A DNA stretch of 46,988 nucleotides from Candidatus Woykebacteria bacterium RIFCSPLOWO2_01_FULL_43_14 (GTDB taxonomy: Bacteria; Patescibacteriota; Microgenomatia; Woykebacterales; 2-01-FULL-43-14). The DNA lies in NCBI GenBank assembly GCA_001816835.1, contig MHDB01000026.1:10312-57299 (forward strand), read 5' to 3'. Each line of letters opens with the position of its first letter. Positions within the stretch are counted from its first letter, which is position 1. Position numbers and translations under genes: made by a program. Of the stretch, positions 22,091 to 42,317 are shown in pieces. The notes beneath the pieces were generated by a model, which saw nothing but the letters and a program-made list of their open reading frames with translations, ran no database searches and was not told the DNA's origin.

Positions 22091-23232
22091 AAGTTGGCAT
22101 TGACGCTAGAGTTTTGGGGACGCAAAGAGCCCTAGATGTCTACCTGCGCAACATTTTAGTTTCCTATCCCAAGACACGTCCCGAAGATCAGATCACTCTA
22201 CTAGTTAGTAACGAAAGCCAGAAAACCTTGGTTCCCAAAGATAGATTCCAATTTAGACTCGTTCCAGCGTCCCACACCTTTATTGAACATTTTAACTTCA
22301 AGAAAAACATCGTTGACTTTGATGTTTTTTGGCATCCCGATAACCGCGAATTTATTAACTGTATTTCTAATAGCGTTGTAACTATTCACGATTTGCTACC
22401 GATTAAGTTTCCGGAAATTGTCCTTAGTAAAGACCCATTTTTGAATTTTCGTCAAAAAGTATACTTTCGGATGCTCAAAAGCGCCTGGAAAAAAGCCAAA
22501 ACGATTATTACAGTTTCCCAGAGTAGTGCTAGCGACATCGAAGAAATAATTGGCGTAAGTAAGAATAAGATAAATGTAGTTTATAACGGCGTCTCTAGGG
22601 ACTTTTTCAAAATCAGGACCGATGAAGAAAAGAAAAAAGCCCAAGCAAAGTATAGGATTGAAAGCCCTTACATTTTTTACATCGGTGGTCTGAACGCCCA
22701 CAAAAATGTCGCGACTCTAATAAGGGCGATGAGTCTTGTAAAGCACAAAAATATTCGGCTGGTGATAGGAGGAAAGACAGATTCTGATAACTCATCTGGT
22801 CAGAATATCTACCAAGAGATTCTAAGCCAGGCTAAGAAATTAGGAGTTAGCGATAGACTTGTTTTTAGCGGTTTTATACAAGATGAGGATTTACCCGCTA
22901 TCTACCAGGGGGCGAAAGTATTCGTGTACCCGTCTTTTTACGAAGGTTTTGGTTTGCCACCACTCGAGGCTCTAGCTTCAGGGGTTCCGGTGATTTGCTC
23001 TAATAGCGCGAGTTTACCTGAGGTGGTTGGGGAAGCAGGGATTCTAATTGATCCAAATGATTACGAAGGTTTTGCTAAAGGTGTGGATAGGATTTTGGAA
23101 GACAGCAAGCTTGCAAACAGCTTGATAAATAAAGGTTTGCTTAGAGCATCTGAATTTAGCTGGGAGAAAGCTGCCGGAGACGTGTATAATATATTGATTG
23201 AGTCCTATGCTAAAAATCAGGCAAAGAATTAG
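22087..23232 (+). CDS. GT4 family glycosyltransferase (mannosyltransferase-like)
   Basis: Motif [38 protein letters not shown]. An SD (GGAGGTGG) lies 6 nt upstream. Confidence 0.88.
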
Positions 23233-24724
23233 GCGTACTCTTTCCTTACTCGCTGAGGATATAACCAGACACAGGCTGTTGTGGTTCTTTCTTGCCTTTT
23301 TTAGTTTTTTTTATTCAATTTGGGTTCTCACCAGACATAATTTTTTTGGAACAGATGCAGTTGATTTAGGCATTTTTGACCAAATAATCTGGAAATATTC
23401 TCAGTTTAAGGAACCTCTTAGTACGGTCAAGTTTTCCACCTATCCTGGAGTAAATATCCTTGGAGACCACTTTCATCCCATAATAGCCATCCTGTCACCG
23501 CTACTTTGGTTTTGGAATAATGTAGCAGCGATACTTATTGCTCAAGTTTTGTTGGTGGTAGGGAGTGCCTGGCCGATATATAAGATAGCCTTAGTAAAGT
23601 TTAATTCCAAAATGTTGGCTCTGGGGATGAGTGTCTCTTACCTCTCCTTCATTGGCTTACAAACACTTTTGGAATACGATTTCCATGAGGTCGCCTTTGC
23701 CTTGCCACTCCTAAGCTTCTCATTCTACTTTCTTGAACTGAAAAAACATTTCTATTTTTATGTATGTCTAGCTTTAAGCTTTTTGGTGAAAGAGGATATG
23801 CCTTTAGTTATGGCCACACTAGGAATTTGGGCTTTTTTACGCCTGCGTGAGTACAAGCTCGGACTGATTACTTTCGGTGTTTCCGGAGTCTTTTATTTCC
23901 TGGTTACTAGATTCATCATCCCTTATTTCAAAGGGGCTCCTTTTGACTACGAACACCTTGACCCCTCTGTCGGGAAGAGTACTTCTGACCTACTCTTGAC
24001 TGCCGTGACAGATCCATTGCTTGTGATAAGAACAGCATTTTATGATGGGGATTGGATAAAACTTAGAACCATGCTCAACCTTGCGAGCTCCTATTTGTTT
24101 TTACCCTTGATTTCCCCAACCTCCCTGATAATGCTTATCCCGAACATCGTCAGTCGGTTTCTAACCGAATTGCCTCAAAGGTGGATAATAAGGTTTCAGT
24201 ACAGTGCCATTTGGGACCCGATCTTGGCTATTGGTACGATCTACGCTATCAAAAATCTTTTATCATTTTCCAACAAGTTTCATCTCGGGCAAAAACTGTC
24301 ACGGAAGGCGTTACCAATCTTAGGTTTAGCGCTGATTGCGTCCTCTCTTTACGTAACCTGGAAAATAAACGGCCCACTTACACATCGAATTTTTAACCCT
24401 AGTTTTTATAAGCCTTTAGATAGGTACGCGCAAAACTACACCCTCCTTGCCCTTATCCCCCCTGAGGCTTCGGTCATGGCTCAATCGGCTTTTGTACCGC
24501 ATTTGTCACACCGAGACCAGATTTATCGCTACGACGACACAATTTTTGCTAAAAAAATCTTTCCCGATTACATTATAATGAGTACCGAGGAGCATTCTGA
24601 TCCTCCCTATACCCAGGAGGACCTAACCAAAAGAGTTTTGCAGCTAAAGGAAAATACTCTCTATCAGGTACTCAGTTGGGATGGTGCTAGACTTCTCCTA
24701 AGGAAAAACAATGAAAATAACTAG
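23207..24724 (+). CDS. DUF2079-family polytopic membrane protein (predicted GT-C-like)
   Basis: Motifs NILGDHFHPIIAILSPLLW, YDFHEVAFALPLL and LVKEDMPLV. ATG 23207 is chosen over the track's TTG 23198. Confidence 0.7.
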   Translation: MLKIRQRIRRTLSLLAEDITRHRLLWFFLAFFSFFYSIWVLTRHNFFGTDAVDLGIFDQIIWKYSQFKEPLSTVKFSTYPGVNILGDHFHPIIAILSPLLWFWNNVAAILIAQVLLVVGSAWPIYKIALVKFNSKMLALGMSVSYLSFIGLQTLLEYDFHEVAFALPLLSFSFYFLELKKHFYFYVCLALSFLVKEDMPLVMATLGIWAFLRLREYKLGLITFGVSGVFYFLVTRFIIPYFKGAPFDYEHLDPSVGKSTSDLLLTAVTDPLLVIRTAFYDGDWIKLRTMLNLASSYLFLPLISPTSLIMLIPNIVSRFLTELPQRWIIRFQYSAIWDPILAIGTIYAIKNLLSFSNKFHLGQKLSRKALPILGLALIASSLYVTWKINGPLTHRIFNPSFYKPLDRYAQNYTLLALIPPEASVMAQSAFVPHLSHRDQIYRYDDTIFAKKIFPDYIIMSTEEHSDPPYTQEDLTKRVLQLKENTLYQVLSWDGARLLLRKNNENN

Positions 24725-26240
24725 ATTTAATTTATTAGTGGCCTTGGTTTTTTTGGTTGGAGTTGGACTGCGGCTTTATTATTTTCTGACTCCTGATACT
24801 AAAATAAGCATGGACGAGGCCACTTACGGCGTTCAGGCGTTCCATATTCTAAAGGGGGAGAGATCTGTATTCTTTTACAATCAGCCTTATACGGGCACAT
24901 TATCAGCTTACCTAGCAGCCATGCTTTTTAGTATCTTTGGCGTTAGTGATGTTTGGCTAAAGACAGTGCCGTTCATCTTTTCAGTGTTATTTTTGCTTAC
25001 TACTTATTATCTTGCCTGGGAAGTGTTTAAGAACAAATATATTTGTTTAATTTCCTTACTTTTTATTTCCGTTACCTCGCCGTTTTGGGTTAACTGGACT
25101 ACTCGCACCGGGACAGGTTATCCGGAGATGATGGTTTTCGGTAACCTAATATTGATACTGACTTTAAAGATAGTTTTCGCTTCTCTACCAAAAAGACAGG
25201 GGCTGTATTTCTTTCTGTTAGGCTTGTGTGCCGGAATAGGTTATTGGATACAACCGGCCATTATTTACTATGGTTTAGCTGCAATGACCATGATTTTTCT
25301 GTGGAAGCCTACTTTTTTCCTTCTGCCGACTTTTTATCTCGTTCCTCTAGGGTTCTTTCTGGGAGCTATGCCGGCTTTAATTTGGAACTTTCAAAACAGT
25401 AATTTGACCAATCGATCGTTGTTCCATAAGCCATTTGGGGTTTTGGGTTCTATTAGGGATTTCTTTCTTTTGGGACTGCCTGTGATTATTGGGGTAAGAA
25501 AACCTTTTTCCGAAACCGATTTCTTCACTCCCTTAGCGCTAGTTACTGAGGCAATATATGGATTAGCCATCGGCTACAGCATGTTTAACAGATTGAAGGA
25601 TACCCTTTCTTTGGGTTTGGGTAAACTATTCGCTAGCCTTATTAGACTCAGGAGTCTTAAGGAGTACTTAAAGCCTCAAGACATTCTTATTCTGAACATG
25701 CTATTTGTTTTAGTGGTGTTTAGTCTTTCCTCTCCCTTCAATCAGTTTGTCATCGAACCGAGGTACATCTCAGCCTTGTATACCTCCTTACCAATACTCC
25801 TGGCAGCTTTTGTGTGCCTTATGTGGAATCGGGTTAAGATTCTTGGAGTTTTTCTAGGAGGAATTGTTTTGGCTAACAACGTCTATGGTTTATATTCTGT
25901 GCCACCTAACAAATTTTTAGACCAATATAAACTTGACCCTATCATAAGTTATCTGGGTGAGCGGGGAGTAAAGTACGTTTATGGGGAATTTGACTTTAGC
26001 TACCGACTGGTGTTTGAGACGCAGGAAGATATCATCGCCACGCCAGGGGATAATCTGTTTGGTGCTCATCGTTACCCTGAGTATATTAAAAAAGTCCAAC
26101 TTGCACCCATTACCCAAAAAGCGTGTGTTTTCCGGTTAACCAAGGGGGATAACTGCGCAAATATATTTGGCCCTCAAACACCTGAGACAAAAATGGTAGA
26201 AATTAACGGTTTTAGAGTTATTACCTACGAGGGAATATGA
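24711..26240 (+). CDS. ArnT/PMT_2-like GT-C membrane glycosyltransferase
   Basis: 509 aa. First loop SMDEATYGVQAFHILKGE, polytopic, with a soluble C-terminal domain. Confidence 0.7.
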   Translation: MKITRFNLLVALVFLVGVGLRLYYFLTPDTKISMDEATYGVQAFHILKGERSVFFYNQPYTGTLSAYLAAMLFSIFGVSDVWLKTVPFIFSVLFLLTTYYLAWEVFKNKYICLISLLFISVTSPFWVNWTTRTGTGYPEMMVFGNLILILTLKIVFASLPKRQGLYFFLLGLCAGIGYWIQPAIIYYGLAAMTMIFLWKPTFFLLPTFYLVPLGFFLGAMPALIWNFQNSNLTNRSLFHKPFGVLGSIRDFFLLGLPVIIGVRKPFSETDFFTPLALVTEAIYGLAIGYSMFNRLKDTLSLGLGKLFASLIRLRSLKEYLKPQDILILNMLFVLVVFSLSSPFNQFVIEPRYISALYTSLPILLAAFVCLMWNRVKILGVFLGGIVLANNVYGLYSVPPNKFLDQYKLDPIISYLGERGVKYVYGEFDFSYRLVFETQEDIIATPGDNLFGAHRYPEYIKKVQLAPITQKACVFRLTKGDNCANIFGPQTPETKMVEINGFRVITYEGI

Positions 26241-27355
26241 GAATTTTTCAAATAACACCCCGGTACTACCCTCTGATTGGTGGCGGTCAAGAAGTGGTAA
26301 AAAGATACGCCGAAGGGTTGTCTTCGCTCGGTCACGAAGTGGTGGTACTTACCTCTAATGACGGGTCAAAAATAAAAAAAGAGGTTATCAATGGGGTGGA
26401 AGTAAGAAGGTTTTCTAAACTTCCCCTACCCAATAATCTTCCTTACCAACCTATTACACCCGGGTTGTTTGTGGAACTGCTTAGGGAGAAGGCTGATATT
26501 TATCATGTGCACGGAAACAAGTGGTTTACGAGCGATATTGCCGGTTTGGTGCTGAATAAAAAATCGGGCAAGCTTGTCTTTACCCCTCTTGCCGGACAGT
26601 TTGGAACTAGTTTGTTAGGTAGACTACACAACCAATTGCTGGGCGGTCTTACCTTTGGTGCCCAACTAGTGCTTCCCGCCTCGGAATTTGAAAAGGGTCT
26701 CTTGGTCAGAGGAGGAATAGACCCTAAAAATATGAAAGTGTTTCCTCATGGAGTTGACCTAGAAGAATTTAAAAACACCAGAAAAGGCTTTTTTGACAAC
26801 ATTGGTTGGAAAGAAACATCAGTAGTAATCTCAGTGAGTAGGTTAGTCCCTCATAAAAACATTGACCTTTTGATTAAGGCTGTGGGATTACTAGCTAAGA
26901 GGGACTACGCTATTAGGTTGGCAGTGGTAGGGCCTGATGGTGGTGAGGGTGAAAGACTAAAAAACTTGGTTCAGAGCTTAAACTTAGCCGATAAAATAAT
27001 TTTCCTAGGTGGCTTAAGTCGGGAAAAGATGATTGAGGCTTTAACGGGTGCGAGCGTTTTTTGTCTGCCGTCTAGCTCTGAGTCTTTCGGGATAGCTTAC
27101 ATCGATGCACTAGCGGCCAGAGTGCCTGTTGTGGCCACTAATTTATGCGCGACCCCAGAAATTATCAAGGACGGGGAAAACGGACTTTTGTGCGATCTTG
27201 ATGAAAAAAGCATTGCGCTAAAGATTGAAACGCTTTTAAAAGATAAAAGCTTGGCTAAGAAATTTGCCGATAATGGTTACAGAACAGTTCAAGAGAAATA
27301 CAACTGGGATAAGATTATAAAAAAATTAGAAGGTTTGTATACAGAATTACTATGA
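26237..27355 (+). CDS. GT4 family glycosyltransferase
   Basis: Motifs RLVPHKN and SESFGIAYIDALAARVPVVATNLCATPEIIKDGENGLL. Confidence 0.85.
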   Translation: MRIFQITPRYYPLIGGGQEVVKRYAEGLSSLGHEVVVLTSNDGSKIKKEVINGVEVRRFSKLPLPNNLPYQPITPGLFVELLREKADIYHVHGNKWFTSDIAGLVLNKKSGKLVFTPLAGQFGTSLLGRLHNQLLGGLTFGAQLVLPASEFEKGLLVRGGIDPKNMKVFPHGVDLEEFKNTRKGFFDNIGWKETSVVISVSRLVPHKNIDLLIKAVGLLAKRDYAIRLAVVGPDGGEGERLKNLVQSLNLADKIIFLGGLSREKMIEALTGASVFCLPSSSESFGIAYIDALAARVPVVATNLCATPEIIKDGENGLLCDLDEKSIALKIETLLKDKSLAKKFADNGYRTVQEKYNWDKIIKKLEGLYTELL

Positions 27356-28536
27356 AATTAATTGTTATGACTTACGACTTGCCTTATCCGCCCGAGTCAG
27401 GTGGAAAGACAAGAGCTTATAATCTCTTAAAGTTCCTTTCCAAGAGTAATAAGATAACTCTTTTGTCCTTTGTTAGGGAAGCGCCGAATCCTGCGTCAAT
27501 AGCTGAACTTAAAAATATTTGTGACGATGTGAAAGTAGTGACTCGATCCAAAGTCTGGACGATTGGTAATCTCACGAGAACCGCTTTGTCGATGGATCCT
27601 TTGGCTATCAATACGTACAAGTCTAGAGAAATGGAGAGATTAATTGCTGAGACACTTTCCCATCAGAAATATGATGCTGTGTTGCTTGAGTCTTTCTATA
27701 CCAGCAACTATGCAGATAAATTTCCTGGATTGAAAGTTATTCTAGGCACCGAGAATTTAGAGTATTTGGTTTACCGTCGTTATGTCGACAACGTGGGGTT
27801 TGCTCCTTTGCGGCCTTTTATGTATCTGGACGTTTTGAAGATGAAAAGGTTCGAAGAAATTTCTTGGTCTAGAGCCGATATTATTTTGGCTGTATCTGAT
27901 CGGGATGCTTTTGAGATAAAGAAAAAATCACTCAAACCGGTGATTCTTGTCCCAAACGGTGTTGACATTGACTTTTTTAGTAATCTAGGGGTCAAAAGGG
28001 CAGCTGAAAAAAGAGCTCTGTTCGTTGGTAATTGGAGTTATATTCAGAACACCGACGCGGCTTTTTTCCTGATAGAAGAAGTCTGGCCGCTCATAAAAAA
28101 AGAGATTCCTGTGCTCAAGCTTTGGTTAGTAGGTAGAAACCCGCTCCAAAAGCTACTAAAATTAGGAACTAAGGACATCGTTTTTGTGACGGACGCTGAT
28201 GATATTCGGGATGTCTACGCTAATGTGGACGTATCGCTTATCCCAATCAGAGCAGCCTCTGGCACCAGATTAAAAGCCTTAGAATCTTTGGCTTCAAATG
28301 TGCCAGTTGTATCGACTAGTATAGGCATCGAGGGTATTGAGGTAACAAATGGTGAGAGCGTCCTGATCGCAGACACACCCAAAGAATTTGCAGAGAAAGT
28401 TAAACTTGTGCTAGAGGATAAGACTTTGAGAGAAAAGATGACTCGAAGGGCGAAACAACTAATTAGCCAAAAATATAGCTGGGAAAGTATTGTAAAAAAT
28501 CTTGAAAAAGGTTTAGAAAATGAATCTGCTAGATAA
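27352..28536 (+). CDS. GT4 family glycosyltransferase
   Basis: N-terminal YDLPYPPESGGKTRAYNLLKFL and C-terminal SGTRLKALESLASNVPVVSTSIGIEGI. Confidence 0.8.
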   Translation: MKLIVMTYDLPYPPESGGKTRAYNLLKFLSKSNKITLLSFVREAPNPASIAELKNICDDVKVVTRSKVWTIGNLTRTALSMDPLAINTYKSREMERLIAETLSHQKYDAVLLESFYTSNYADKFPGLKVILGTENLEYLVYRRYVDNVGFAPLRPFMYLDVLKMKRFEEISWSRADIILAVSDRDAFEIKKKSLKPVILVPNGVDIDFFSNLGVKRAAEKRALFVGNWSYIQNTDAAFFLIEEVWPLIKKEIPVLKLWLVGRNPLQKLLKLGTKDIVFVTDADDIRDVYANVDVSLIPIRAASGTRLKALESLASNVPVVSTSIGIEGIEVTNGESVLIADTPKEFAEKVKLVLEDKTLREKMTRRAKQLISQKYSWESIVKNLEKGLENESAR

Positions 28537-31369
28537 GAGTATAAAAATACTAATTACAATTTTTGTTCTGTTCCTACCGCTAACCAACAGGGACTTATTT
28601 AGTTTTGGTATCGATTTTCTTATTCCTGTTAGGATTGTATTTTTGATTCTTTTGGTCTGCATAGCATTTAAAGCAATCATTTTTTGGAAAAAGTGTGGTT
28701 TGAGTGTGCTTAAGAAATACCTAAAAACCCAGGCCAAAGATAGGCTTCTTATTCTTCTCAGCATACTCTGGCTGGTCAGGGTAGTTTCTTTCGTGAATTC
28801 CAAGAACATTTCTGCCAGCCTTAATCTAATCGCTTTTTACACCTCTATGATAGTACTCTATGTCCTTCTGAAATATATTTTTAGTAAGGACGCTAAATTT
28901 AGCTTTTTCCTTTTTAAGACTTATCTACTCTCAATTATCTTTAGCGTTTTTTATGCCTTGGTTCAAATACTCTCAAACCTGCTACTTGGGGTGACCTTAC
29001 CAGGACTTCTGGTTGGCGGTAACTACTACCGTGTTCCAGGGCCTTTTTATGATGCCAACCACCTCCCAGCCTTCTTGATTACCGGTATTCCTAGTTTTGT
29101 CGCGAGGGGGTTTTACCACAACGCTCTCTGGAAGAAAATCATTCTTTATGCCTCGGCTTTGACATGCGCGATTGTTCTTTTTCTAACCTTTTCCAGGAGT
29201 GGATTTATAGGTTTTGGAGTGAGTATTATAGTTGCCCTTTTCTTAATTATTCGTTACCGATATTGGGCAAAACTTTTGATCCCTCTGGCCTTAGTAGGCT
29301 TTCTGATACTGATAGTATTTCTATCTGACAGAACCAGCCACTCTTTAGTAGACCGAATGTTTAGCGTTTTTAACCAAGCAGAGAGATCTACGGCCGCACA
29401 CACGATCCTTTTGCAAGGTGAGATTGATTTGTACCTGAAGAATCCTATTCTGGGTGTCGGCTACGGCAGTTTTAGTGAGCATTTTAGGGATTCTTATTAT
29501 GGCCAGGAGCATTTGAAAATAGATCCAACTAGAGATATACGATTACCACCACATAGTATTTGGCTAGAGGTGCTTACTGAAACGGGGACCATAGGGTTTA
29601 TAGTTTATTGCGCGATCATGTTCACCATACTGCGTAAGCTTTTAGGAGCTATTAATAGGGCCTTGAATAAACAATGGCGAATTTACTTTATTGCCCTTTT
29701 CGCCAGTGTGGTCGGGATACTTTCGAGCGGTTTTTTCTACTCATACAACCTCGAACTCTTTTGGTTTTTCCTCTTTTATTCTTATTTACTAGCTGCTAAT
29801 TACCACCGATTTACTAGTAACTCAGGGGACGCGGACTTAAATGAGAGTGAATACGTGAATTGGACGGAAGTATTGATACCAGTTACCGTAATGATAGTTT
29901 CATTTCTGGTGATATTTGGTGGTTTGGGGAGTAACGCCCTAATTGAGTTTGATGAAGGAATATATGGCTTGATCGCCAAAAATATGAGCAGTACTGGTGA
30001 TTACTTAGTCGCCACTGTTAGGTCAAATACGCCTTGGTTTGAAAAACCTCCCTTGTATATGTGGCTTACGGCTCCGATGATAAAACTCTTTGGGGTGGAT
30101 GCTTTCAGTGTGAAATTCTGGTCCGCAATGTTTAGTGTCTCAACCGTTCTAGCGACCTATTTTCTAGCGAAACTGTTAACCAGAAGCCGATACCTCGGAG
30201 TCTTAGCCTCATTAGTCCTTCTCACCACTTTCCATTTCCTGAGGTATTCTCGGATGGGGATGCTTGATGTGACCGTGACCTTTTTCATGACCCTCAGTGT
30301 CCTATTACTACTATTAGCAAGGCGAAGAGCGATTTTTTGGCTGTTAGCTGGTCTATCACTAGGTTTGGGATTTATGACCAAGGATTTTGTGTCTCTTTTA
30401 ATCCTGCCCGTATTAGGATTAATTCTTTTTAGTTACCGTAAGGATTACGTTTTTAGAAAATCCTGGCTGTTCTTAGTCGGATTTGCTTTGGTTAGTGCTC
30501 CATGGCATATCTATACTTATCAGCGGTTTGGGTTTGATTTTTTGAATTCTTATGTTGGTTACCATATTATCTCTCGTTTTTCTTCAGACATAGAAGGAAA
30601 AACAGGGCCATTGCTTGTCTATGTAGACGTGCTGAAAAATAGTTTACGAATTTGGTTTCCTATTCTGGGGTTAAGCCTGATTTTCTTCATTACCAGATTC
30701 TTGGGCTTGAGAAAATTAGGACTGAAAAAATTAAATGATTATCTCAGCAGATTAGGTTTTAATCGTTCTCCGGACTTTAAGGTCCTGGGAATTCTGTTTG
30801 TCTGGGCATTGAGTATCCTCGTCCCTCTTAGCTTGTCTAGAACAAAACTTATATGGTACATCGTTCCTGTTTACCCTGTTTTAGCAGTGATAATTAGCAT
30901 CTTTTTTGCGGATTTGAGCGGGATGATATTTTCTCAGGCACGTAGATTTAATTTAAAGATGAAAACAGAGCAGTTAAAATTTGTTATTTATACGATCATC
31001 TTGTTAAGCTTAAGCATTATCTCGTTTATCTATCTTTATATGAAGTGGAATTTGGTGGACGGTAGAGATTTTAATGGCGATATGGTTAAACTGATATACA
31101 TAAAGCAACAGATTGAACCTAGTGGTAAAATACCTTTGGCTTTTGTTGATGTGGGGGAGGCTGTACCTAGATTTTATGCTGAGGGGACCGTCGAGATTTG
31201 GCCTCCAGAGATGCTCAGGTCCTTAGGTTTGATTGAGAGAACCCGGTATTTGATTGCCAAACGCGATTTTGCTTATAAAGTTATGTCCACATACACAGAA
31301 GAAAACCCACTCCGTATAGAAGCCTCTTTGGGAGACTTTATATTAATGAAAAGGCAGGGTCCAGAATGA
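28520..31369 (+). CDS. fusion protein: O-antigen ligase/polymerase-like (Wzy_C) N-terminal half plus ArnT/PMT_2-like GT-C C-terminal half
   Basis: 949 aa. The N-terminal half has FSRSGFIGFGVSIIVALF and GVGYGSF...PHSIWLEVLTETGTIGFIVY (Wzy_C hallmarks). After a linker near aa 430-445 come FDEGIYGLIAKNMSSTGDY, WFEKPPLYMWL and GFMTKDFVSLLILP (ArnT/PMT_2 hallmarks). Confidence 0.7.
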   Translation: MNLLDKSIKILITIFVLFLPLTNRDLFSFGIDFLIPVRIVFLILLVCIAFKAIIFWKKCGLSVLKKYLKTQAKDRLLILLSILWLVRVVSFVNSKNISASLNLIAFYTSMIVLYVLLKYIFSKDAKFSFFLFKTYLLSIIFSVFYALVQILSNLLLGVTLPGLLVGGNYYRVPGPFYDANHLPAFLITGIPSFVARGFYHNALWKKIILYASALTCAIVLFLTFSRSGFIGFGVSIIVALFLIIRYRYWAKLLIPLALVGFLILIVFLSDRTSHSLVDRMFSVFNQAERSTAAHTILLQGEIDLYLKNPILGVGYGSFSEHFRDSYYGQEHLKIDPTRDIRLPPHSIWLEVLTETGTIGFIVYCAIMFTILRKLLGAINRALNKQWRIYFIALFASVVGILSSGFFYSYNLELFWFFLFYSYLLAANYHRFTSNSGDADLNESEYVNWTEVLIPVTVMIVSFLVIFGGLGSNALIEFDEGIYGLIAKNMSSTGDYLVATVRSNTPWFEKPPLYMWLTAPMIKLFGVDAFSVKFWSAMFSVSTVLATYFLAKLLTRSRYLGVLASLVLLTTFHFLRYSRMGMLDVTVTFFMTLSVLLLLLARRRAIFWLLAGLSLGLGFMTKDFVSLLILPVLGLILFSYRKDYVFRKSWLFLVGFALVSAPWHIYTYQRFGFDFLNSYVGYHIISRFSSDIEGKTGPLLVYVDVLKNSLRIWFPILGLSLIFFITRFLGLRKLGLKKLNDYLSRLGFNRSPDFKVLGILFVWALSILVPLSLSRTKLIWYIVPVYPVLAVIISIFFADLSGMIFSQARRFNLKMKTEQLKFVIYTIILLSLSIISFIYLYMKWNLVDGRDFNGDMVKLIYIKQQIEPSGKIPLAFVDVGEAVPRFYAEGTVEIWPPEMLRSLGLIERTRYLIAKRDFAYKVMSTYTEENPLRIEASLGDFILMKRQGPE

Positions 31370-32268
31370 GTAAGGTTGATTTGTCAGTTATTATTCTAAA
31401 TTTTAACACTTCAGAATTGCTAGATGGTGCCCTCAGCTCACTTGAGAAAATTGATAAAGACAACTTTAATTTCGAAGTTATTGTTGCTGATAATGGCTCT
31501 AAAGACGGTAGTATTGAGATGGTTAAGAAAAAACACCCTAAAGTAATTTTAGTCGATAACAAGGCTAATCTAGGCTTCGCTGCGGGTAATAATCGTGCGG
31601 TTCCTAAAAGCCGCGGGCGTCTCGTGTTATTTCTGAACTCGGATACAATTGTACCAAAGGAAACGTTACCTTTTATGGTTGACTATATGGATAGAAACCT
31701 TGGTGTTGGTATCAGCACCTGTAAACTTGTTCTCGCGAGTGGCGAACTCGACCCAGACTGTCATAGGGGCTTTCCAACACCTTGGAATTCGCTGTGCTAC
31801 TTTTCTGGTTTATCAAAGTTATTTCCAAAAAGCGTTTTGTTTAATAGTTACCACATGGGACAACTGGACATGACCAAAACTCACGAGATTGACGCTTGCG
31901 TGGGCGCTTTTTTGCTAACTCGGCGTGAGGTTGGTGAAAAAGTTGGATGGTGGGACGAGGACTATTTTTTCTATGGTGAAGATCTGGAATTTTGTTACCG
32001 GGTTAAAAACCTTGGTTTGAAAATTATGTATGTGCCTCAGGTTTTCATAACACATCTTAAAGGTGCTTCTAGTGGTTTAAGACGCGAAACAGCTAAAATA
32101 ACAAGGGTTTCGCCGGAAGTTAGAAGAAAAGTGGCGAAGGCTTCAATTGACGCCATGAAAATTTTTTACCAAAAACATTATGAAGATAAATATCCAAAGA
32201 TACTTAAATGGCTAATATTTGTGATTCTGGGGATAAAGTATCAGCTTAGGTTAAGGGGTATTAAATGA
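31366..32268 (+). CDS. GT2 family glycosyltransferase
   Basis: Motifs LSVIILNFNTSELL, VADNGSKDGS, LNSDT and YGEDLEFCYR. Confidence 0.85.
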   Translation: MSKVDLSVIILNFNTSELLDGALSSLEKIDKDNFNFEVIVADNGSKDGSIEMVKKKHPKVILVDNKANLGFAAGNNRAVPKSRGRLVLFLNSDTIVPKETLPFMVDYMDRNLGVGISTCKLVLASGELDPDCHRGFPTPWNSLCYFSGLSKLFPKSVLFNSYHMGQLDMTKTHEIDACVGAFLLTRREVGEKVGWWDEDYFFYGEDLEFCYRVKNLGLKIMYVPQVFITHLKGASSGLRRETAKITRVSPEVRRKVAKASIDAMKIFYQKHYEDKYPKILKWLIFVILGIKYQLRLRGIK

Positions 32269-32963
32269 GTTTAGTAAAAGAAATATCGGTCTTCTTCCCT
32301 GCCTATAATGAAGCGGAAAATATCACAGAAGTGGTAAGGAAAGCCCTAGCGGTTTTAGAAGAGATTGCGGACAACTATGAGGTTTTGGTGATTAATGATG
32401 GAAGTTCGGATAACACCGTTGAAGTAGTGACTAACCTGATTAAGGATAATAAATCCGTAAAACTCATAACGCATAGGGAAAACCAAGGTTATGGTGGGGC
32501 GATAAAAACTGGCCTGTATAGTTCTCGATACGATTTAATAGCTTTTAATGATGGTGACGGGCAGTTTGATTTTTCACAAATTAGAGGTTTTTTGCCAAAA
32601 CTTAGCGGGGCAGATTTGGTTATCGGGTATCGCAAGAAAAGATCCGATCCTTTTTTCCGATTGATTAACGCCAAGTTGTACTCTATATTTTTGTTCGCTC
32701 TGTTTGGTCTAAGAGTTCGGGATGTTGATTGCGCTTTCAAGTTAATAAAAAAAGAGGTTGTAGATGCGCTTCCCAATCTGGAATCAAACGGCGCATTGAT
32801 TTCAGCGGAATTGCTAATTAGAGCGAGAAAAAAAGGTTTTCGGATTGCTCAGGTGCCTGTTAATCATTTTCCTCGGACCTTTGGTAGCCCAACCGGCGCG
32901 AATCTGAAAGTGATTGTAAAAATGTTTGGTGAAGTACTGAAACTTTATCGTGACTTAAAATGA
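32265..32963 (+). CDS. GT2 polyprenol-phosphate sugar synthase (DPM1/GtrB/ArnC-like)
   Basis: 232 aa. Motifs ISVFFPAYNEAENI, NDGSSDNT, NDGDGQFD and DVDCAFKL. Confidence 0.8.
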   Translation: MSLVKEISVFFPAYNEAENITEVVRKALAVLEEIADNYEVLVINDGSSDNTVEVVTNLIKDNKSVKLITHRENQGYGGAIKTGLYSSRYDLIAFNDGDGQFDFSQIRGFLPKLSGADLVIGYRKKRSDPFFRLINAKLYSIFLFALFGLRVRDVDCAFKLIKKEVVDALPNLESNGALISAELLIRARKKGFRIAQVPVNHFPRTFGSPTGANLKVIVKMFGEVLKLYRDLK

Positions 32964-34222
32964 AAATTGGCATAATTGGGGCGGGAGCTTTGGGTCTGAC
33001 CTGTGCTTATGAATTGAGCAAAAAAGGTCACCAAGTCGAGGTTCTAGAAAAAGAAAATAGTGTCGGAGGACTAGCGGTGGATTTTGAATATGAAGGGTGG
33101 CATCTTGAGAAATTCTACCATCATTTATTTAGAACAGACACCACTATCACCTCTTTAATTCACGAGATTGGACTAGGTGACAAATTAATCTGGAAAAAGC
33201 CAAATACCTCTGTTTACTACCGAGGGGTGGTTTATCCAATTGACAGTCCGATGGCTGTTTTAAGATTCACCCCTATTAGCTTAATAGATAGGTTAAGACT
33301 TGGTTTGGTGATGGTGTATCTTAAAATTCAACCCAACTTTAAACTTTTTGAAGGTATAACGGCTGTGTATTGGTTAAAGAAGTATCTGGGTAAGGCAAGT
33401 TACTCTGTTTTGTGGGAGCCACTTCTCAAAGCCAAATTTGGCGATTTTTACGACAAAATTGCCATGAGCTGGTTTTGGGCAAGAGTTCATTATCGAACAG
33501 CCCAACTAGGCTATTTAAAAGAAGGGTTTTACCAATTTTATGAAAAACTTAAAGAAGCATTTTTGAGCAAAGGTGGTAAAATTACGTTTGGGGTTAACAT
33601 TGACAGAATTGGTTCTGAGAATACGCGGCCCTATGTGATAGTTGGAGGAAGGAAAAGTTATTTTGACAAGCTAGTAGTCTGCACCCCTACGCCAGTTTTT
33701 TTCAAATTATGTCCAGATATTCCTTTGGAATACCGTGAAAAGTATCACTTACCTCAATATTTTGGGGCTCAAGTAGTAGTTTTACAAACTAAGCGTAAGG
33801 TTATGGATGTGTACTGGTGCAATATCAACGACGCTGCGATACCTTTTATGGCCTATGTGGAACATACGAACTTTATGGACCCAAAAGACTATGGAGACTC
33901 TCATCTAATTTATTTGGGAAATTACTTTTCTCCCGAGGACGCTAGGTATAATAAGGAGCCTGATAAGGTGATCAAAGAATACATAGAGGGTCTAAAAAAA
34001 CTTAAAGGCGATTTCGACGACTCCTGGATACTAAAAAGTTGGGTTTTTCGTACTCCCTTTGCCCAACCAATCGTGGATATAGACTACTATAAGCAAATTC
34101 CACCTTTCGAAACATCTTTGCAAAACGTTTACTTGGCCAATATGGCCCAGGTTTATCCCCAAGATCGAGGCCAGAATTATAGTGTTGCATTGGGTAAAAA
34201 AATAGCTGAGGCAATCTCGTGA
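32960..34222 (+). CDS. FAD/NAD(P)-dependent oxidoreductase (amine-oxidase / protoporphyrinogen-phytoene-desaturase-like fold)
   Basis: N-terminal Rossmann motif KIGIIGAGALGLTCAYELSKKGHQVEVLEKENSVGG. 420 aa. Translationally coupled to the upstream GT2 (ATGA overlap). Confidence 0.7.
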   Translation: MKIGIIGAGALGLTCAYELSKKGHQVEVLEKENSVGGLAVDFEYEGWHLEKFYHHLFRTDTTITSLIHEIGLGDKLIWKKPNTSVYYRGVVYPIDSPMAVLRFTPISLIDRLRLGLVMVYLKIQPNFKLFEGITAVYWLKKYLGKASYSVLWEPLLKAKFGDFYDKIAMSWFWARVHYRTAQLGYLKEGFYQFYEKLKEAFLSKGGKITFGVNIDRIGSENTRPYVIVGGRKSYFDKLVVCTPTPVFFKLCPDIPLEYREKYHLPQYFGAQVVVLQTKRKVMDVYWCNINDAAIPFMAYVEHTNFMDPKDYGDSHLIYLGNYFSPEDARYNKEPDKVIKEYIEGLKKLKGDFDDSWILKSWVFRTPFAQPIVDIDYYKQIPPFETSLQNVYLANMAQVYPQDRGQNYSVALGKKIAEAIS

Positions 34223-38864: not shown

Positions 38865-38872
38865 TAAACTCG

Positions 38873-41232: not shown

Positions 41233-42316
41233 TATATATGCAGTAATTATGGCTGGGGGTGGTGGTTCCAGACTCTGGCCAAAATCCCGTAATAGACGGC
41301 CAAAGCAGTTCCTCAAACTGATTTCGTCTAAAACCATGCTCCAGGAAACAGTGGATAGGATAAGGTCGCTTGTTAATATAGAAAATGTGTTCGTGGTAAC
41401 CTCGGCCCAGTATGTTAATGAGGTTAAAAGTGAGATTAACGGCCTGCCCGAAGAAAATATTTTGACTGAGCCGCAGGCCAAAAATACTGCTATAGCTATT
41501 GGTCTTGCTGCGGCCAAAATTTATAAACTTAATCCCAAAGCAGTTATTGCCACCTTAGCTTCTGATCATCTCATCAAAAATCCACGCGAGTTCAGATCGA
41601 CTCTGCTCAGAGCCCTAAAGGCTGCTAGTAAAGGAAACTATCTAGTGACTATAGGTATTCATCCCACTGAACCTCACATTGGGTTTGGTTATATCCATAG
41701 CAACGGTCTCAAATTTAAAATAGATTCAAAGCCAGTATTTAATGTTGAGAGCTTTACAGAGAAGCCTAATTTGGTGACCGCTCAAGCTTATATTGCTACA
41801 GGACTGTATTTCTGGAATGCCAACATAAATGCTTACTCTGCTAGCTCAATTCTTGAGGCATTTAAGACAAATATGCCCAAACTTTACAAAGGGTTAACTA
41901 GAATAAGAGATTCTTTTGGTAAATCCGACTATCAGGAAGTGGTTACTAGTGTCTATGAAAATGCTGAGAGTATTGCCATTGACACGGGTATTTTGGAAAA
42001 AGCTAACAATGTCTTGATGGTTCCAGGAGATTTTGGTTGGAGTGATATTGGCAGTTGGAAAGAGTTACACGAGCTGTCTCCTATCTCAGTTGAGGGTAAT
42101 GTTATGTTGGGTGACGAGTCAGGAGAGCATCTTTTTATTGATACCAAAAATTGCTTAATTCATAGCAGTGGTCGATTGGTGGCCACAATAGGTGTAGAAG
42201 ATTTGATTATCGTGGATACGGTTGATGCTCTTTTGGTTTGTCCCAAAGACCGTGCTCAAGAAGTAAAGAGTTTGGTCGAGAGGATCAAAAAAGAGAAAAG
42301 AGTTGAGTATCTCTAA
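41219..42316 (+). CDS. manC: mannose-1-phosphate guanylyltransferase
   Basis: Motifs IYAVIMAGGGGSRLWPKSRNRRPKQFL, ASDH, FTEKP and GWSDIGSW. 365 aa, with no fused cupin/PMI domain. Confidence 0.9.
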   Translation: MNTNDIYAVIMAGGGGSRLWPKSRNRRPKQFLKLISSKTMLQETVDRIRSLVNIENVFVVTSAQYVNEVKSEINGLPEENILTEPQAKNTAIAIGLAAAKIYKLNPKAVIATLASDHLIKNPREFRSTLLRALKAASKGNYLVTIGIHPTEPHIGFGYIHSNGLKFKIDSKPVFNVESFTEKPNLVTAQAYIATGLYFWNANINAYSASSILEAFKTNMPKLYKGLTRIRDSFGKSDYQEVVTSVYENAESIAIDTGILEKANNVLMVPGDFGWSDIGSWKELHELSPISVEGNVMLGDESGEHLFIDTKNCLIHSSGRLVATIGVEDLIIVDTVDALLVCPKDRAQEVKSLVERIKKEKRVEYL

Positions 42317-42317
42317 C

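What the first reader, a model, noticed from the sequence alone, without database searches (positions are those of the whole stretch)
28520..31369. Single 949-aa ORF fusing an O-antigen-ligase/polymerase-like (Wzy_C) module to an ArnT/PMT-like GT-C module
Seen in the sequence:
- The N-terminal half (about aa 1-430) carries Wzy_C hallmarks: FSRSGFIGFG and GVGYGSF....PHSIWLEVLTETGTIGFIVY.
- A short acidic linker (SGDADLNESEY, about nt 29811-29860) follows.
- The C-terminal half (about 500 aa) has ArnT/PMT_2 hallmarks: FDEGIYGLIAKNMSSTGDY, WFEKPPLYMW and MTKDFVSLL.

Established knowledge: the two are normally separate enzymes with different chemistries. Wzy_C enzymes use an undecaprenyl-PP-oligosaccharide donor for en-bloc transfer or polymerisation. 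ArnT/PMT-like enzymes use a polyprenol-P-monosaccharide donor for single-sugar transfer.

Inference: a physical fusion would couple attachment or polymerisation of a lipid-linked glycan with its in-situ decoration, or create the acceptor sugar and then ligate onto it. I do not recall this architecture being characterised.
Basis: partly seen in the sequence, partly recalled or inferred. Interest (0 to 1): 0.7.

Follow-up and report, generated by a model that had tools for sequence, protein, structure and literature searches.

The report
Fused glycan ligase and sugar transferase
One 949-residue membrane protein of an uncultured Candidate-Phyla-Radiation bacterium really does join a WaaL-type glycan ligase to an ArnT-type sugar transferase; the pairing is conserved (fused or as adjacent genes) across its relatives and has not been studied, so it gives a handle on how these bacteria build their surface sugars.

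Summary
ORF 28520-31369 (+) encodes 949 aa with two separate, significant modules. Wzy_C covers aa 212-364 and PMT/PMT_2 covers aa 485-669. An AlphaFold2 model (pLDDT 90.6) matches the WaaL ligase and the ArnT transferase independently.

It is not an assembly artefact. At least 41 protein clusters (50% identity), all labelled Woykebacteria, WWE3 or Patescibacteria where named, carry the same architecture down to about 27% identity, in conserved synteny. Relatives also exist in which the two halves are adjacent separate genes in the same order.

Both active sites look intact. The ligase half keeps R226 and H345 (WaaL Arg-191 and His-313). The GT-C half keeps D478/E479, E508/K509, D583, R686 and Y780 (ArnT D55/E56, E84/K85, D158, R270, Y345). 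The locus supplies both donor types: a PglC-type primer enzyme, GT4s and Wzx flippases for a lipid-PP-oligosaccharide, and an ArnC/DPMS-like GT2 for a polyprenol-P-sugar.

Best reading: a bifunctional outer-face enzyme that couples single-sugar transfer with en-bloc glycan ligation. The acceptor and the order of steps are unknown. A nested sister clade keeps the ligase half but has a degenerate GT-C half. The closest precedent is WadA (GT25 fused to a ligase). I rate it a new variant of a known kind, of moderate interest.

The parts
28520..31369 (+). Whole 949-aa bimodular ORF, stop codon included
   Evidence: ORF list. A 100% identical public protein, P0001, comes from Candidatus Woykebacteria. 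AF2 model pLDDT 90.6, pTM 0.89.
28520..29815 (+). N-terminal WaaL-like (Wzy_C, GT-C_B type) lipid-PP-glycan ligase module, aa 1-432
   Evidence: Pfam Wzy_C at aa 212-364, 72 bits. Foldseek to WaaL 7TPG: E 2e-6, TMt 0.64. Profile hit to 7TPG at E 1.3e-7. 25 of the 26 invariant columns across 47 homologues lie in this half.
29195..29197 (+). Codon for R226 (in FSRSG), equivalent to WaaL Arg-191, which binds the Und-PP phosphate
   Evidence: Alignment to 7TPG. Invariant in 47/47 homologues. Residue role from PMC10920833.
29399..29401 (+). Codon for H294, an invariant His at the position aligned with WaaL Arg-265
   Evidence: The second phosphate-binding Arg is not conserved as Arg at this aligned column. 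R341 (46/47) and R171 (47/47) are other conserved Arg residues in this half.
29552..29599 (+). H345 and the motif H-S-x9-G-x-x-G (HSIWLEVLTETGTIG), equivalent to WaaL His-313, the proposed acceptor-activating base
   Evidence: Alignment to 7TPG. H345, W348, E350, E354, T355, G356 and G359 are invariant. Ligases have His here, whereas polymerases of the same clan have Asp or Glu.
29816..29860 (+). Linker of variable length, aa 433-447, inferred to be cytoplasmic
   Evidence: pLDDT is lowest here, about 69. Length and sequence vary among homologues. In the split relatives the stop and restart fall at this position.
29861..31063 (+). ArnT/PMT-like GT-C_A membrane module, aa 448-848
   Evidence: Pfam PMT_2 and PMT. 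ArnT 5EZM by sequence at E 1e-14, and by profile at 1.5e-35. Foldseek to 5F15: E 2e-12, TMt 0.65.
29951..29956 (+). D478-E479, the GT-C 'DE' catalytic motif in the first outer loop (ArnT D55/E56)
   Evidence: Alignment, where chain numbering is literature numbering +3. Role from PMC7801869. 21/21 conserved in group A.
30041..30046 (+). E508-K509 of FEKPP (ArnT E84/K85; K85 contacts the lipid-carrier phosphate)
30266..30268 (+). D583 (ArnT D158)
   Evidence: Alignment. 20/21 conserved in group A. That ArnT D158 is functionally important is my recollection of Petrou et al. 2016, which I could not read here.
30575..30577 (+). R686 (ArnT R270)
   Evidence: 21/21 conserved in group A and deleted in group B.
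30857..30859 (+). Y780 (ArnT Y345, close to the carrier phosphate in 5F15)
   Evidence: 21/21 conserved in group A and deleted in group B.
31064..31366 (+). C-terminal soluble alpha/beta domain, aa 849-949, inferred to be extracytoplasmic like ArnT's periplasmic domain
   Evidence: DSSP of the model shows alternating strands and helices from aa 853 to 945. The Foldseek alignment to ArnT has 579 columns for a 541-residue target, so it probably includes ArnT's periplasmic domain, though the residue-level alignment was not shown.
32265..32963 (+). Small GT2 (232 aa), ArnC/GtrB/DPMS-like polyprenol-phosphate sugar synthase; likely makes the donor for the GT-C module
   Evidence: NCBIfam best hits are ArnC, PgfS, dolichyl-P hexose transferase and PpgS, all below their equivalog cutoffs. 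PDB hits: ArnC 9HWJ at E 4e-23, GtrB 5EKE, DPMS 5MLZ. An orthologue at 43-63% identity is present in 5 of 5 related loci tested, including the split and group B loci.
31366..32268 (+). GT2 (300 aa), translationally coupled to the fusion by an ATGA overlap
   Evidence: Pfam. Orthologues at 47-65% identity sit next to the fusion in L009, L012 and L013.
32960..34222 (+). FAD/NAD-binding amine-oxidase-type oxidoreductase (PRK07233); conserved neighbour of the small GT2, role unknown
   Evidence: NCBIfam 456 bits against a cutoff of 252. Conserved in L009, L010 and L012. Only its Rossmann N-terminus resembles solved structures.
26237..28536 (+). Two GT4 glycosyltransferase genes immediately upstream (26237-27355 and 27352-28536), conserved in synteny
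   Evidence: Pfam. Synteny.
23198..26240 (+). A DUF2079 membrane protein (23198-24724) and a standalone PMT_2 GT-C (24711-26240), a conserved upstream pair
   Evidence: Pfam. Synteny.
42303..42944 (+). Small PglC-type polyprenyl-phosphate phosphoglycosyl transferase (Bac_transf), likely initiator of the lipid-PP-linked glycan
   Evidence: Pfam at 212 bits. NCBIfam EPS_sugtrans, WbaP and WcaJ C-terminal domains. Conserved in L012 and L013.
9781..14028 (+). Two Wzx-type flippase genes (9781-11022 and 12583-14028) flanking a further PMT_2 gene
   Evidence: Pfam Polysacc_synt and Polysacc_synt_3.

Best explanation
The ORF encodes a real bifunctional integral-membrane glycan-assembly enzyme of a Candidatus Woykebacteria (CPR/Patescibacteria) bacterium. 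The N-terminal module (aa 1-432) has the WaaL fold. It takes an oligosaccharide assembled on undecaprenyl-type diphosphate and transfers it en bloc to an acceptor hydroxyl. That oligosaccharide would be started by the locus's PglC-type transferase, extended by its many GT4 and GT2 enzymes, and flipped by its Wzx proteins. In the transfer step, R226 would bind the diphosphate and H345 would activate the acceptor. A short linker, inferred to be cytoplasmic, leads into an ArnT-like GT-C module (aa 448-848, plus an outer soluble domain). This module transfers one sugar from a polyprenol-monophosphate sugar, made by the ArnC/DPMS-like GT2 two genes downstream, using D478/E479, K509, D583, R686 and Y780. 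Both active sites face the outside of the membrane. The two reactions are consecutive steps on the same surface glycoconjugate. Most likely the GT-C module installs or completes the sugar onto which, or next to which, the ligase module attaches the glycan. Shown here: the two folds, intact catalytic residues, conservation of the pairing in both fused and split forms, and co-location with the enzymes for both donor types. Inferred: the donor identities, the order of the two steps, the topology of the linker, and the acceptor. Because CPR bacteria are reported to lack LPS, the acceptor is probably a protein, glycolipid or wall polymer rather than lipid A-core.
For: Two domains pass Pfam's curated cutoffs in non-overlapping halves.

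The AF2 model has pLDDT 90.6 and pTM 0.89. Foldseek matches ArnT 5F15 (E 2e-12, TMt 0.65) and WaaL 7TPG (E 2e-6, TMt 0.64), both at probability 1.00.

Ligase residues: R226 = Arg-191 and H345 = His-313 within H-S-x9-G-x-x-G. Both are invariant in 47/47 homologues. His at this position marks ligases, whereas polymerases of the clan have Asp or Glu. O-oligosaccharyltransferases share this His.

GT-C residues: D478/E479, E508/K509, D583, R686 and Y780 align with ArnT D55/E56, E84/K85, D158, R270 and Y345 (roles). Each is conserved in 20-21 of 21 group A members.

Not an artefact: 47 clusters at 90% identity. 41 of the best 64 representatives at 50% identity are 784-1160 aa. 8 of 8 distant ones tested carry both domains.

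Functional link: true split forms have a Wzy_C gene followed by an orthologous PMT_2 gene, in L016 and in L017/L018 on 6 contigs. The downstream genes match the C-half at E 5e-48 and 4e-61, against E >= 4e-7 for the window's own paralogues.

Donor supply: PglC-type PGT, two Wzx, about 12 GT4, ManC, GDP-mannose dehydratase and UDP-GlcNAc 2-epimerase. The ArnC/GtrB/DPMS-like GT2 has an orthologue in 5 of 5 related loci. Synteny is conserved at 37-50% identity.

Precedent: WadA is a ligase fused to the GT that makes its acceptor sugar.
Against: There is no biochemical or genetic evidence, and the organism is uncultured.

The second phosphate-binding Arg of WaaL (Arg-265) aligns with an invariant His (H294), not an Arg. 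ArnT's Zn-binding His pair is not conserved: Y681 and I683 occupy those positions.

All NCBIfam equivalog scores are far below their cutoffs, for example ArnT at 83 against 567 and IctB at 57 against 366. Neither half is therefore an orthologue of a characterised enzyme.

In a nested sister clade (group B) the GT-C half has lost its catalytic residues while the small GT2 stays adjacent. So the ligase does not universally need catalysis by its fused partner, and the GT2 may instead serve one of the several standalone PMT_2 paralogues.

I could not inspect model coordinates or PAE, so the geometry between the two active sites is unknown.

The linker is acidic rather than basic, so its cytoplasmic placement rests on homology to the WaaL and ArnT topologies, not on the positive-inside rule.
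Confidence: 0.62

Rival explanations
1. Protein O-glycosylation machine. The N-half is a PglL/PilO/WsaB-type O-oligosaccharyltransferase and the C-half a PMT-like protein O-glycosyltransferase. Both act on secreted, pilin or S-layer proteins as they emerge at the membrane. This is a more specific version of the main explanation, with protein as the acceptor.
For: O-OTases share the Wzy_C fold and the catalytic His aligned with WaaL's. The C-half passes Pfam's PMT model, PF02366. ArnT is also the best structural homologue of the TMTCs, which work in a protein O-mannosylation pathway and are predicted O-mannosyltransferases, so closeness to ArnT does not imply a lipid acceptor. From general knowledge, CPR bacteria lack LPS and carry pili and S-layers. 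A sortase and a PMT+PMT_4TMC gene lie near the fusion in L009.
Against: No MIR domain, PMT_4TMC or PglL_A domain was detected in the protein. No candidate acceptor protein gene was recognised in the window. ArnT, not PMT, is the best match by both sequence and structure.
Confidence: 0.3
2. The N-half is a Wzy-type repeat-unit polymerase rather than a ligase. The fused GT-C adds a side-branch sugar to each repeat as the polymer grows, similar to Gtr-type O-antigen modification.
For: It is the only Wzy_C protein in a locus with two Wzx flippases, and no other polymerase family was detected. A few family members give weak NCBIfam hits to TuaE and to 'oligosaccharide repeat unit polymerase'. The PDB depositors themselves named the 7TPG chain 'polymerase/ligase'.
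Against: The catalytic position holds an invariant His, as in ligases, not the Asp or Glu of clan GT-C1 polymerases. No Wzz/PCP chain-length regulator was detected in the window. A related genome carries a second, standalone Wzy_C next to Wzx, which could be the polymerase, although that paralogue also has the His.
Confidence: 0.2
3. The GT-C half of this particular protein is a non-catalytic scaffold or acceptor-binding module, as it appears to be in group B, and only the ligase half is an enzyme.
For: Group B relatives keep a reduced ArnT-like fold without the catalytic residues. This shows that the module can persist without catalysis.
Against: The window's protein belongs to group A. In this group D478, E479, K509, K621, R686 and Y780 are conserved in 21/21 members, and E508, D583 and K776 in 20/21. 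Conservation at that level indicates selection for catalysis and donor binding.
Confidence: 0.05
4. Assembly or gene-calling artefact: two adjacent genes joined by a missed stop codon or frameshift.
For: Split gene pairs do exist in some relatives.
Against: The reading frame is continuous in the window. The fused form recurs in dozens of independent assemblies from different samples and sources, with a variable but always in-frame linker. The identical protein was seen on 10 contigs.
Confidence: 0.01

Closest known systems
WadA of Brucella and Mesorhizobium (a bifunctional O-antigen ligase: GT25 domain plus GT121 ligase domain)
   Same: A WaaL-type ligase module is covalently fused to a glycosyltransferase that acts in the same pathway. 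In WadA the partner GT makes the sugar onto which the ligase attaches the glycan (PMC9938171; PMC10920833). It sets the precedent for a 'prime and ligate' logic.
   Different: WadA's partner is a soluble, cytoplasmic, nucleotide-sugar-dependent GT25 at the N-terminus, so its two sites lie on opposite faces of the membrane. Here the partner is a polytopic GT-C at the C-terminus that uses a polyprenol-P-sugar, and both sites are inferred to face outward. No GT25 domain is present. WadA's acceptor is LPS core, which CPR bacteria are reported to lack.
WaaL O-antigen ligase (Cupriavidus metallidurans, PDB 7TPG/7TPJ; CAZy GT121, Pfam Wzy_C)
   Same: Same fold (TMt 0.64). The Arg-191 and His-313 equivalents and the H-[NS]-x9-G-x-x-G motif are conserved.
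   Different: Only a profile-level sequence match (E 1.3e-7). His replaces Arg at the Arg-265 column. The lineage is reported to lack lipid A-core as an acceptor. The protein carries a roughly 500-aa GT-C extension.
ArnT (lipid A L-Ara4N transferase, PDB 5EZM/5F15; GT83) and the wider PMT clan (GT39)
   Same: Same GT-C_A fold (TMt 0.65). The DE motif, FEKPP (E84/K85), D158, R270 and Y345 equivalents are conserved, and there is a C-terminal soluble domain. A partner ArnC-like GT2 is encoded nearby.
   Different: NCBIfam's ArnT equivalog scores 83 bits against a cutoff of 567. The Zn-binding His pair is not conserved. No MIR domains as in eukaryotic PMTs. The acceptor is unknown.
Three-component extracytoplasmic glycosylation systems (GtrA/GtrB/Gtr-type GT-C for O-antigen; CsbB/GtcA/YfhO for lipoteichoic acid; GacI/GacL-type for streptococcal rhamnan). 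Recalled from general knowledge.
   Same: The logic is the same: a GT2 makes a polyprenol-P-sugar and a GT-C transfers that sugar onto a surface polymer outside the membrane.
   Different: In those systems the GT-C is a free-standing protein, not fused to the ligase or polymerase of the main glycan.
O-oligosaccharyltransferases PglL, PglS and PilO (Wzy_C family)
   Same: Wzy_C fold with a catalytic His aligned to WaaL's, and en-bloc transfer from Und-PP-glycan. They are plausible functional analogues in an organism without LPS.
   Different: No PglL_A or Wzy_C_2 domain was detected here. Those enzymes are not fused to a GT-C.

Membership tests
Wzy_C / O-antigen-ligase-like superfamily (Pfam PF04932; fold class GT-C_B) | Passes the curated Pfam HMM cutoff | tested here: met
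   72.2 bits against a cutoff of 31.7, aa 212-364.
Wzy_C / O-antigen-ligase-like superfamily (Pfam PF04932; fold class GT-C_B) | Polytopic WaaL/SEDS-like fold with a large outer loop near the C-terminus | tested here: met
   Foldseek to 7TPG_B: probability 1.00, TMt 0.64. FtsW and RodA give weaker matches. The helical outer region at aa 270-346 appears in the model.
O-antigen ligase proper (WaaL, CAZy GT121) | First Und-PP-binding Arg (Arg-191 of 7TPG) | tested here: met
   R226 aligns with it and is invariant in 47/47 homologues.
O-antigen ligase proper (WaaL, CAZy GT121) | Second Und-PP-binding Arg (Arg-265 of 7TPG) | tested here: not met
   The aligned column holds an invariant His, H294. 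Other conserved Arg residues (R171, R341) might substitute, but this was not shown.
O-antigen ligase proper (WaaL, CAZy GT121) | Catalytic His (His-313), as opposed to the Asp/Glu of polymerases | tested here: met
   H345 lies in H-S-x9-G-x-x-G and is invariant. The criterion comes from PMC10920833.
O-antigen ligase proper (WaaL, CAZy GT121) | Acceptor is lipid A-core oligosaccharide | not testable with these tools
   The source is a CPR (Woykebacteria) MAG. From general knowledge CPR bacteria lack LPS biosynthesis, so orthologous function is unlikely. I therefore describe the module as WaaL-like and do not file it as WaaL.
GT-C_A lipid-P-sugar glycosyltransferases (Pfam PMT_2 PF13231 / PMT PF02366; ArnT GT83, PMT GT39) | Passes the curated Pfam HMM cutoffs | tested here: met
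   PMT_2 at 65.2 bits against 26.1, and PMT at 64.9 bits against 22.7.
GT-C_A lipid-P-sugar glycosyltransferases (Pfam PMT_2 PF13231 / PMT PF02366; ArnT GT83, PMT GT39) | Acidic D-[DE] catalytic motif in the first outer loop | tested here: met
   D478-E479 align with ArnT D55/E56. Conserved in 21/21 group A members.
GT-C_A lipid-P-sugar glycosyltransferases (Pfam PMT_2 PF13231 / PMT PF02366; ArnT GT83, PMT GT39) | Residues that bind the carrier phosphate (ArnT K85, R270, Y345) | tested here: met
   K509, R686 and Y780 align with them. Each is conserved in 21/21 group A members.
GT-C_A lipid-P-sugar glycosyltransferases (Pfam PMT_2 PF13231 / PMT PF02366; ArnT GT83, PMT GT39) | GT-C_A fold | tested here: met
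   Foldseek to 5F15: E 2e-12, TMt 0.65. STT3, ALG12, ALG9 and Pmt4 follow.
ArnT orthologue (lipid A L-Ara4N transferase) | NCBIfam equivalog score, and the Zn site E84/H265/H267 | tested here: not met
   83 bits against a cutoff of 567. The H265 and H267 columns hold Y681 and I683. It works like ArnT but is not an ArnT orthologue.
Canonical protein O-mannosyltransferase (GT39) | MIR domains and/or the PMT_4TMC C-terminal module | tested here: not met
   No MIR or PMT_4TMC hit at E <= 0.01. NCBIfam PrMnsylTfPmt scores 33 bits against a cutoff of 800.
WadA-type bifunctional O-antigen ligase | GT25 domain fused to a GT121 ligase domain | tested here: not met
   No GT25 domain is present, and the partner here is a C-terminal GT-C. 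It is analogous in logic only.
Wzy repeat-unit polymerase (clan GT-C1 BP-Pols) | Conserved Asp/Glu at the position of the ligase His | tested here: not met
   An invariant His (H345) occupies that position.

The most novel reading that the evidence does not exclude
[quoted passage not shown] The GT-C module uses a polyprenol-P-sugar to install the acceptor sugar on a non-LPS target, such as a protein Ser/Thr or a membrane glycolipid. The adjacent WaaL-like module then ligates a large Und-PP-linked oligosaccharide onto that very sugar, and the target is handed from one site to the other within a single polypeptide. In the group B sister clade the catalytically dead GT-C remnant would survive as the acceptor-recognition subunit of the ligase. 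If true, this would be the first example of a GT-C_A and a GT-C_B enzyme fused into one catalytic unit, and it would reveal what Wzy_C 'ligases' do in bacteria without LPS.
Probability: 0.3. Interest if true: 0.7.

Novelty: new variant of a known kind. Interest (0 to 1): 0.52.

Why it matters
Wzy_C/GT121 'O-antigen ligase' homologues are widespread in bacteria that have no LPS, and their acceptors are unknown; PMC10920833 raises this question itself. This family links such a ligase to an ArnT-type polyprenol-P-sugar transferase, either covalently or as an adjacent gene pair. It sits inside a conserved, very glycosyltransferase-dense locus of CPR bacteria, whose envelopes are almost uncharacterised.

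That gives a concrete, testable hypothesis: two consecutive outer-face steps act on one acceptor. It also gives a compact two-activity protein that could be expressed in glyco-engineering hosts. The naturally degenerate group B forms offer a built-in comparison for separating the catalytic role of the GT-C module from any scaffolding role.

The finding extends the single characterised precedent for a bifunctional ligase (WadA) to a different partner fold and a different membrane face.

Tried and rejected
1. Assembly artefact or missed stop. Rejected: dozens of independent fused homologues exist, and the identical protein was seen on 10 contigs.

2. Recent fusion with a neighbouring paralogue. 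Rejected: the C-half matches the window's own PMT_2 proteins only at E >= 4e-7, whereas it matches the split-form partners at E 4e-61 and 5e-48.

3. Short (about 430-460 aa) relatives taken as standalone ligases. P0052 and P0056 are merely cut off by contig ends. P0059, P0065 and probably P0062 are true split pairs. P0060 is a real standalone paralogue. P0066 was not on record.

4. Single-sequence search of the PDB found ArnT but not WaaL. A profile of the N-half was needed to reach WaaL.

5. The loss of catalytic residues in group B might have been a MAFFT artefact. It was checked with an independent HMM built from group A alone, and the result held.

6. Literature searches found nothing describing this architecture: Wzy_C + PMT_2; O-antigen ligase + Candidate Phyla Radiation; Patescibacteria + O-antigen ligase; O-antigen ligase + GT-C + fused. 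The primary WaaL and ArnT structure papers were not held, so residue roles are cited from secondary sources.

7. My Kyte-Doolittle transmembrane prediction was too crude to use. Topology is therefore inferred from the model's helices and from homology.

8. The scan of GTDB representative genomes returned only 8 loci, too few for a quantitative taxonomic survey.

9. The neighbouring FAD oxidoreductase could not be assigned a substrate.

10. No tRNA genes are present in the window, and no candidate acceptor protein was seen in the unannotated stretch at 17-19.3 kb.

Full report
**1. Observation.** The window holds a continuous ATG-initiated ORF at 28520..31369 (+) encoding 949 aa. It overlaps the upstream GT4 gene by 17 nt and the downstream GT2 gene by 4 nt (ATGA), which suggests one tightly packed, probably co-transcribed gene array. 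Pfam assigns Wzy_C to aa 212-364 (E 5e-20, 72 bits, cutoff 31.7). It assigns PMT_2 and PMT to aa 485-669 (E 1e-17, 65 bits, cutoffs 26.1 and 22.7), with no overlap between the two regions.

**2. Source and reality of the fusion.** An identical protein is in public databases as 'hypothetical protein A3A61_02175' of a Candidatus Woykebacteria MAG, seen on 10 contigs. The word-indexed search found 47 clusters of 729-1015 aa. Most carry precomputed Wzy_C plus PMT_2 hits, at 29-51% identity.

An exhaustive HMMER search with the N-half alone against 1.84 billion representatives found 41 hits at E <= 1e-30 and 186 at E <= 1e-10. Of the best 64 hits, 41 are 784-1160 aa. All 8 distant long ones that I scanned (27-35% identity) carry both domains. 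Every source name attached to a member, and most record titles of the 8 loci found in GTDB representative genomes, say Woykebacteria, WWE3, Saccharibacteria, Patescibacteria or unclassified 'bacterium'. Two titles read 'uncultured Gammaproteobacteria', which look like automatic labels. The fusion is therefore real, old and apparently confined to the CPR.

**3. Two folds.** An AlphaFold2 model built on the 47-sequence alignment has mean pLDDT 90.6 and pTM 0.89, and the only weak stretch is the linker, at about 69. Foldseek against the PDB returns ArnT (5F15: E 2e-12, TMt 0.65) and WaaL (7TPG: E 2e-6, TMt 0.64) as separate top hits, both at probability 1.00. Other GT-C_A enzymes (STT3, ALG12, ALG9, Pmt4) follow, and SEDS proteins match more weakly. 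By sequence, ArnT is hit directly (E 1e-14; profile 1.5e-35). WaaL is reached with a profile of the N-half (E 1.3e-7).

**4. Active sites.** The HMMER alignment to 7TPG places R226 on Arg-191 and H345 on His-313, within H-S-x9-G-x-x-G. It places the invariant H294 on Arg-265. According to PMC10920833, the two Args bind the Und-PP phosphates and the His activates the acceptor. Polymerases of the same clan carry Asp or Glu at the His position, and O-oligosaccharyltransferases share the His. R171, R226, H294, H345, E350 and E354 are invariant in all 47 homologues. On the catalytic-residue criterion the N-half therefore looks like a ligase or oligosaccharyltransferase, not a polymerase. One of the two canonical Args is not conserved as Arg.

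For the C-half, the alignment to 5EZM (chain numbering = literature +3) gives these correspondences: D478/E479 = D55/E56, E508/K509 = E84/K85, D583 = D158, R686 = R270 and Y780 = Y345. The Zn-binding His pair is not conserved. The roles of the DE motif, K85 and Y345 are summarised in PMC7801869.

**5. Topology (inferred).** In the model, three membrane helices (347-380, 384-403, 412-426) separate the outer catalytic loop of the ligase half from the linker. One helix (448-466) separates the linker from the DE motif. From general knowledge, WaaL ends in the cytoplasm and ArnT starts there. This places the linker inside the cell and both catalytic centres outside.

**6. Genomic context.** The 47-kb window is almost entirely one glycan-assembly locus. 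It contains:

- a PglC-type phosphoglycosyl transferase and two Wzx flippases;
- about 12 GT4 and four GT2 enzymes;
- ManC, GDP-mannose 4,6-dehydratase and UDP-GlcNAc 2-epimerase;
- eight GT-C-type membrane proteins: the fusion, four standalone PMT_2, two DUF2079 and one weak YfhO-like.

The fusion is the only Wzy_C protein. The 232-aa GT2 two genes downstream (32265-32963) is most similar to ArnC, GtrB and DPMS, that is, to polyprenol-phosphate sugar synthases.

The gene order DUF2079 - PMT_2 - GT4 - GT4 - fusion - GT2 - small GT2 - FAD oxidoreductase - GT4 is kept in the closest loci, and the far end ... PGT - DUF4012 - RecO recurs in others; overall the synteny holds at 37-50% identity. Orthologues of the small GT2 (43-63% identity) occur in all five related loci tested. 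The locus therefore supplies both donor classes that the two modules need.

**7. Split forms.** In L016, and in L017/L018 (6 contigs, one of 285 kb), a 431- or 460-aa Wzy_C gene ends with a stop codon. A separate 483- or 497-aa PMT_2 gene follows 9 or 55 nt later. These downstream proteins match our C-half at E 5e-48 and 4e-61. The window's own PMT_2 paralogues reach only E 4e-7. L019 is a third, fragmented example. In a rough NJ tree of the ligase halves, the split forms are interleaved with fused ones. The same two proteins thus occur fused or adjacent, which is classic evidence that they work together.

**8. A degenerate sister clade.** The family divides sharply into two groups. Group A (21 sequences, including this protein) keeps D478, E479, K509, K621, R686 and Y780 in 21/21 members, and E508, D583 and K776 in 20/21. 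Group B (26 sequences, about 840 aa, plus two of about 730 aa) keeps every invariant ligase residue. In its GT-C half, however, D478 survives in 3/26, E508 in 0/26 and D583 in 2-3/26, and about 120 positions containing R686, K776 and Y780 are deleted. An independent HMM alignment confirmed this.

Group B's ligase half is closer to ours (37-46% identity, 39-46% for all but one member) than that of distant group A members (28-30%). In the tree it forms a nested clade, so the degeneration is a derived state. A group B model (pLDDT 85.6) still matches WaaL at TMt 0.64, but matches ArnT only at 0.50. The GT-C module can therefore persist without catalysis, which hints at a structural or acceptor-binding role in addition to its enzymatic one. 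It also warns that the ligase does not always depend on its partner's chemistry.

**9. Mechanism.** The best-supported reading is a bifunctional outer-face enzyme. The GT-C module transfers one sugar from a polyprenol-P-sugar, and the WaaL-like module transfers a polyprenol-PP-linked oligosaccharide en bloc, in consecutive steps on one glycoconjugate. Three things remain undetermined: the order of the steps (prime then ligate, complete the donor glycan then ligate, or ligate then decorate), the sugars involved, and the acceptor. Since CPR bacteria are reported to lack LPS (general knowledge), the acceptor should be a protein, glycolipid or wall polymer. Closeness to ArnT does not argue against a protein acceptor, because the TMTCs of the protein O-mannosylation pathway also have ArnT as their best structural homologue.

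**10. Comparison and novelty.** The nearest characterised analogue is WadA of Brucella, described as the first bifunctional O-antigen ligase. In WadA a cytoplasmic GT25 that adds the acceptor sugar is fused to a ligase domain. The present architecture differs in three ways: the partner fold (a polytopic GT-C), the partner's donor (lipid-P-sugar) and the membrane face (both sites outside).

It is not an orthologue of WaaL, ArnT or PMT, because the equivalog cutoffs are missed by wide margins, and it is not a WadA member. Searches of the held literature found no description of a Wzy_C-GT-C fusion. Public annotations read only 'hypothetical protein', 'O-antigen ligase family protein' or 'glycosyltransferase family 39 protein'.

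I classify it as a new variant of a known kind. Interest is moderate at 0.52. The finding is real, conserved and mechanistically suggestive, and it bears on the open question of what GT121-like ligases do outside LPS biology. Domain fusions of pathway partners are not in themselves surprising, though, and nothing here is demonstrated biochemically.

Noticed in passing
Homologues P0018-P0047 (for example L012:10001-12535); not in the window: A nested sister clade of about 840-aa fusions (group B) keeps all invariant ligase residues but has lost the GT-C catalytic and donor-binding residues, along with about 120 positions. It looks like a pseudo-GT-C retained next to an active ligase.
   Followed up: yes
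L016:3358-6114; L017:6001-8932; L018:1165-4096; L019:529-3195: These loci carry split versions of the same pair: a Wzy_C gene followed directly by an orthologous PMT_2 gene. In a rough tree they are interleaved with fused forms, so fusion or fission has happened more than once.
   Followed up: yes
window 32960-34222 (+): An FAD/NAD-binding amine-oxidase-type oxidoreductase (NCBIfam PRK07233, 456 bits) is conserved next to the ArnC/DPMS-like small GT2 in L009, L010 and L012. It might modify the polyprenol-P-sugar or a nucleotide sugar, but only its Rossmann N-terminus resembles any solved structure.
   Followed up: partly
window 1947-26240, both strands: The density of GT-C-type membrane proteins in one locus is unusual: four standalone PMT_2 (6325, 11019, 19334 on the minus strand, 24711), two DUF2079 (1947 on the minus strand, 23198) and a weak YfhO-like protein (3449), besides the fusion. 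About 12 GT4 genes are also present. Roughly 30 of about 40 genes are glycan-related.
   Followed up: partly
window 42303-45649 (+): The gene order PglC-type PGT - DUF4012 (627 aa) - RecO is conserved in L012 and L013. DUF4012 is a constant companion of the priming transferase and could be a chain-length or export factor. No NCBIfam family matched it.
   Followed up: no
window 38837-39544 (+): An IS200-like Y1 transposase domain protein (235 aa, TTG start) sits inside the glycan locus, between oppositely oriented genes (37634-38773 minus strand and 39643-40047 minus strand).
   Followed up: no
window 17000-19330: A low-GC stretch (34-35% against about 40%) interrupts the locus. It holds a ceramidase-family 7-TM protein (17079-17756, minus strand), a 55-aa ORF with paired CxxC motifs (zinc-ribbon-like by eye, not tested; 18047-18214) and a retropepsin-like aspartyl protease ORF (18655-19080). 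A similar Asp_protease_2 gene lies near the related cluster in L020.
   Followed up: no
P0092-P0094, P0099-P0101, P0048 (about 680-750 aa); not in the window: A separate clade of related Wzy_C proteins carries a C-terminal extension of roughly 280 aa that has no Pfam match. It is another uncharacterised bimodular form of the ligase.
   Followed up: no
L020:5001-6287 (P0060): A second, standalone Wzy_C paralogue lies next to a Wzx flippase in the same 285-kb contig that carries the split pair. It is 38% identical to the window's N-half and also keeps the catalytic His. It may be the polymerase, or a second ligase, of that locus.
   Followed up: partly
L001, L003 (GTDB representative genomes): Two loci encoding clear family members come from records titled 'uncultured Gammaproteobacteria bacterium'. 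Given that all other labels are CPR, these titles look like automatic mislabels.
   Followed up: no
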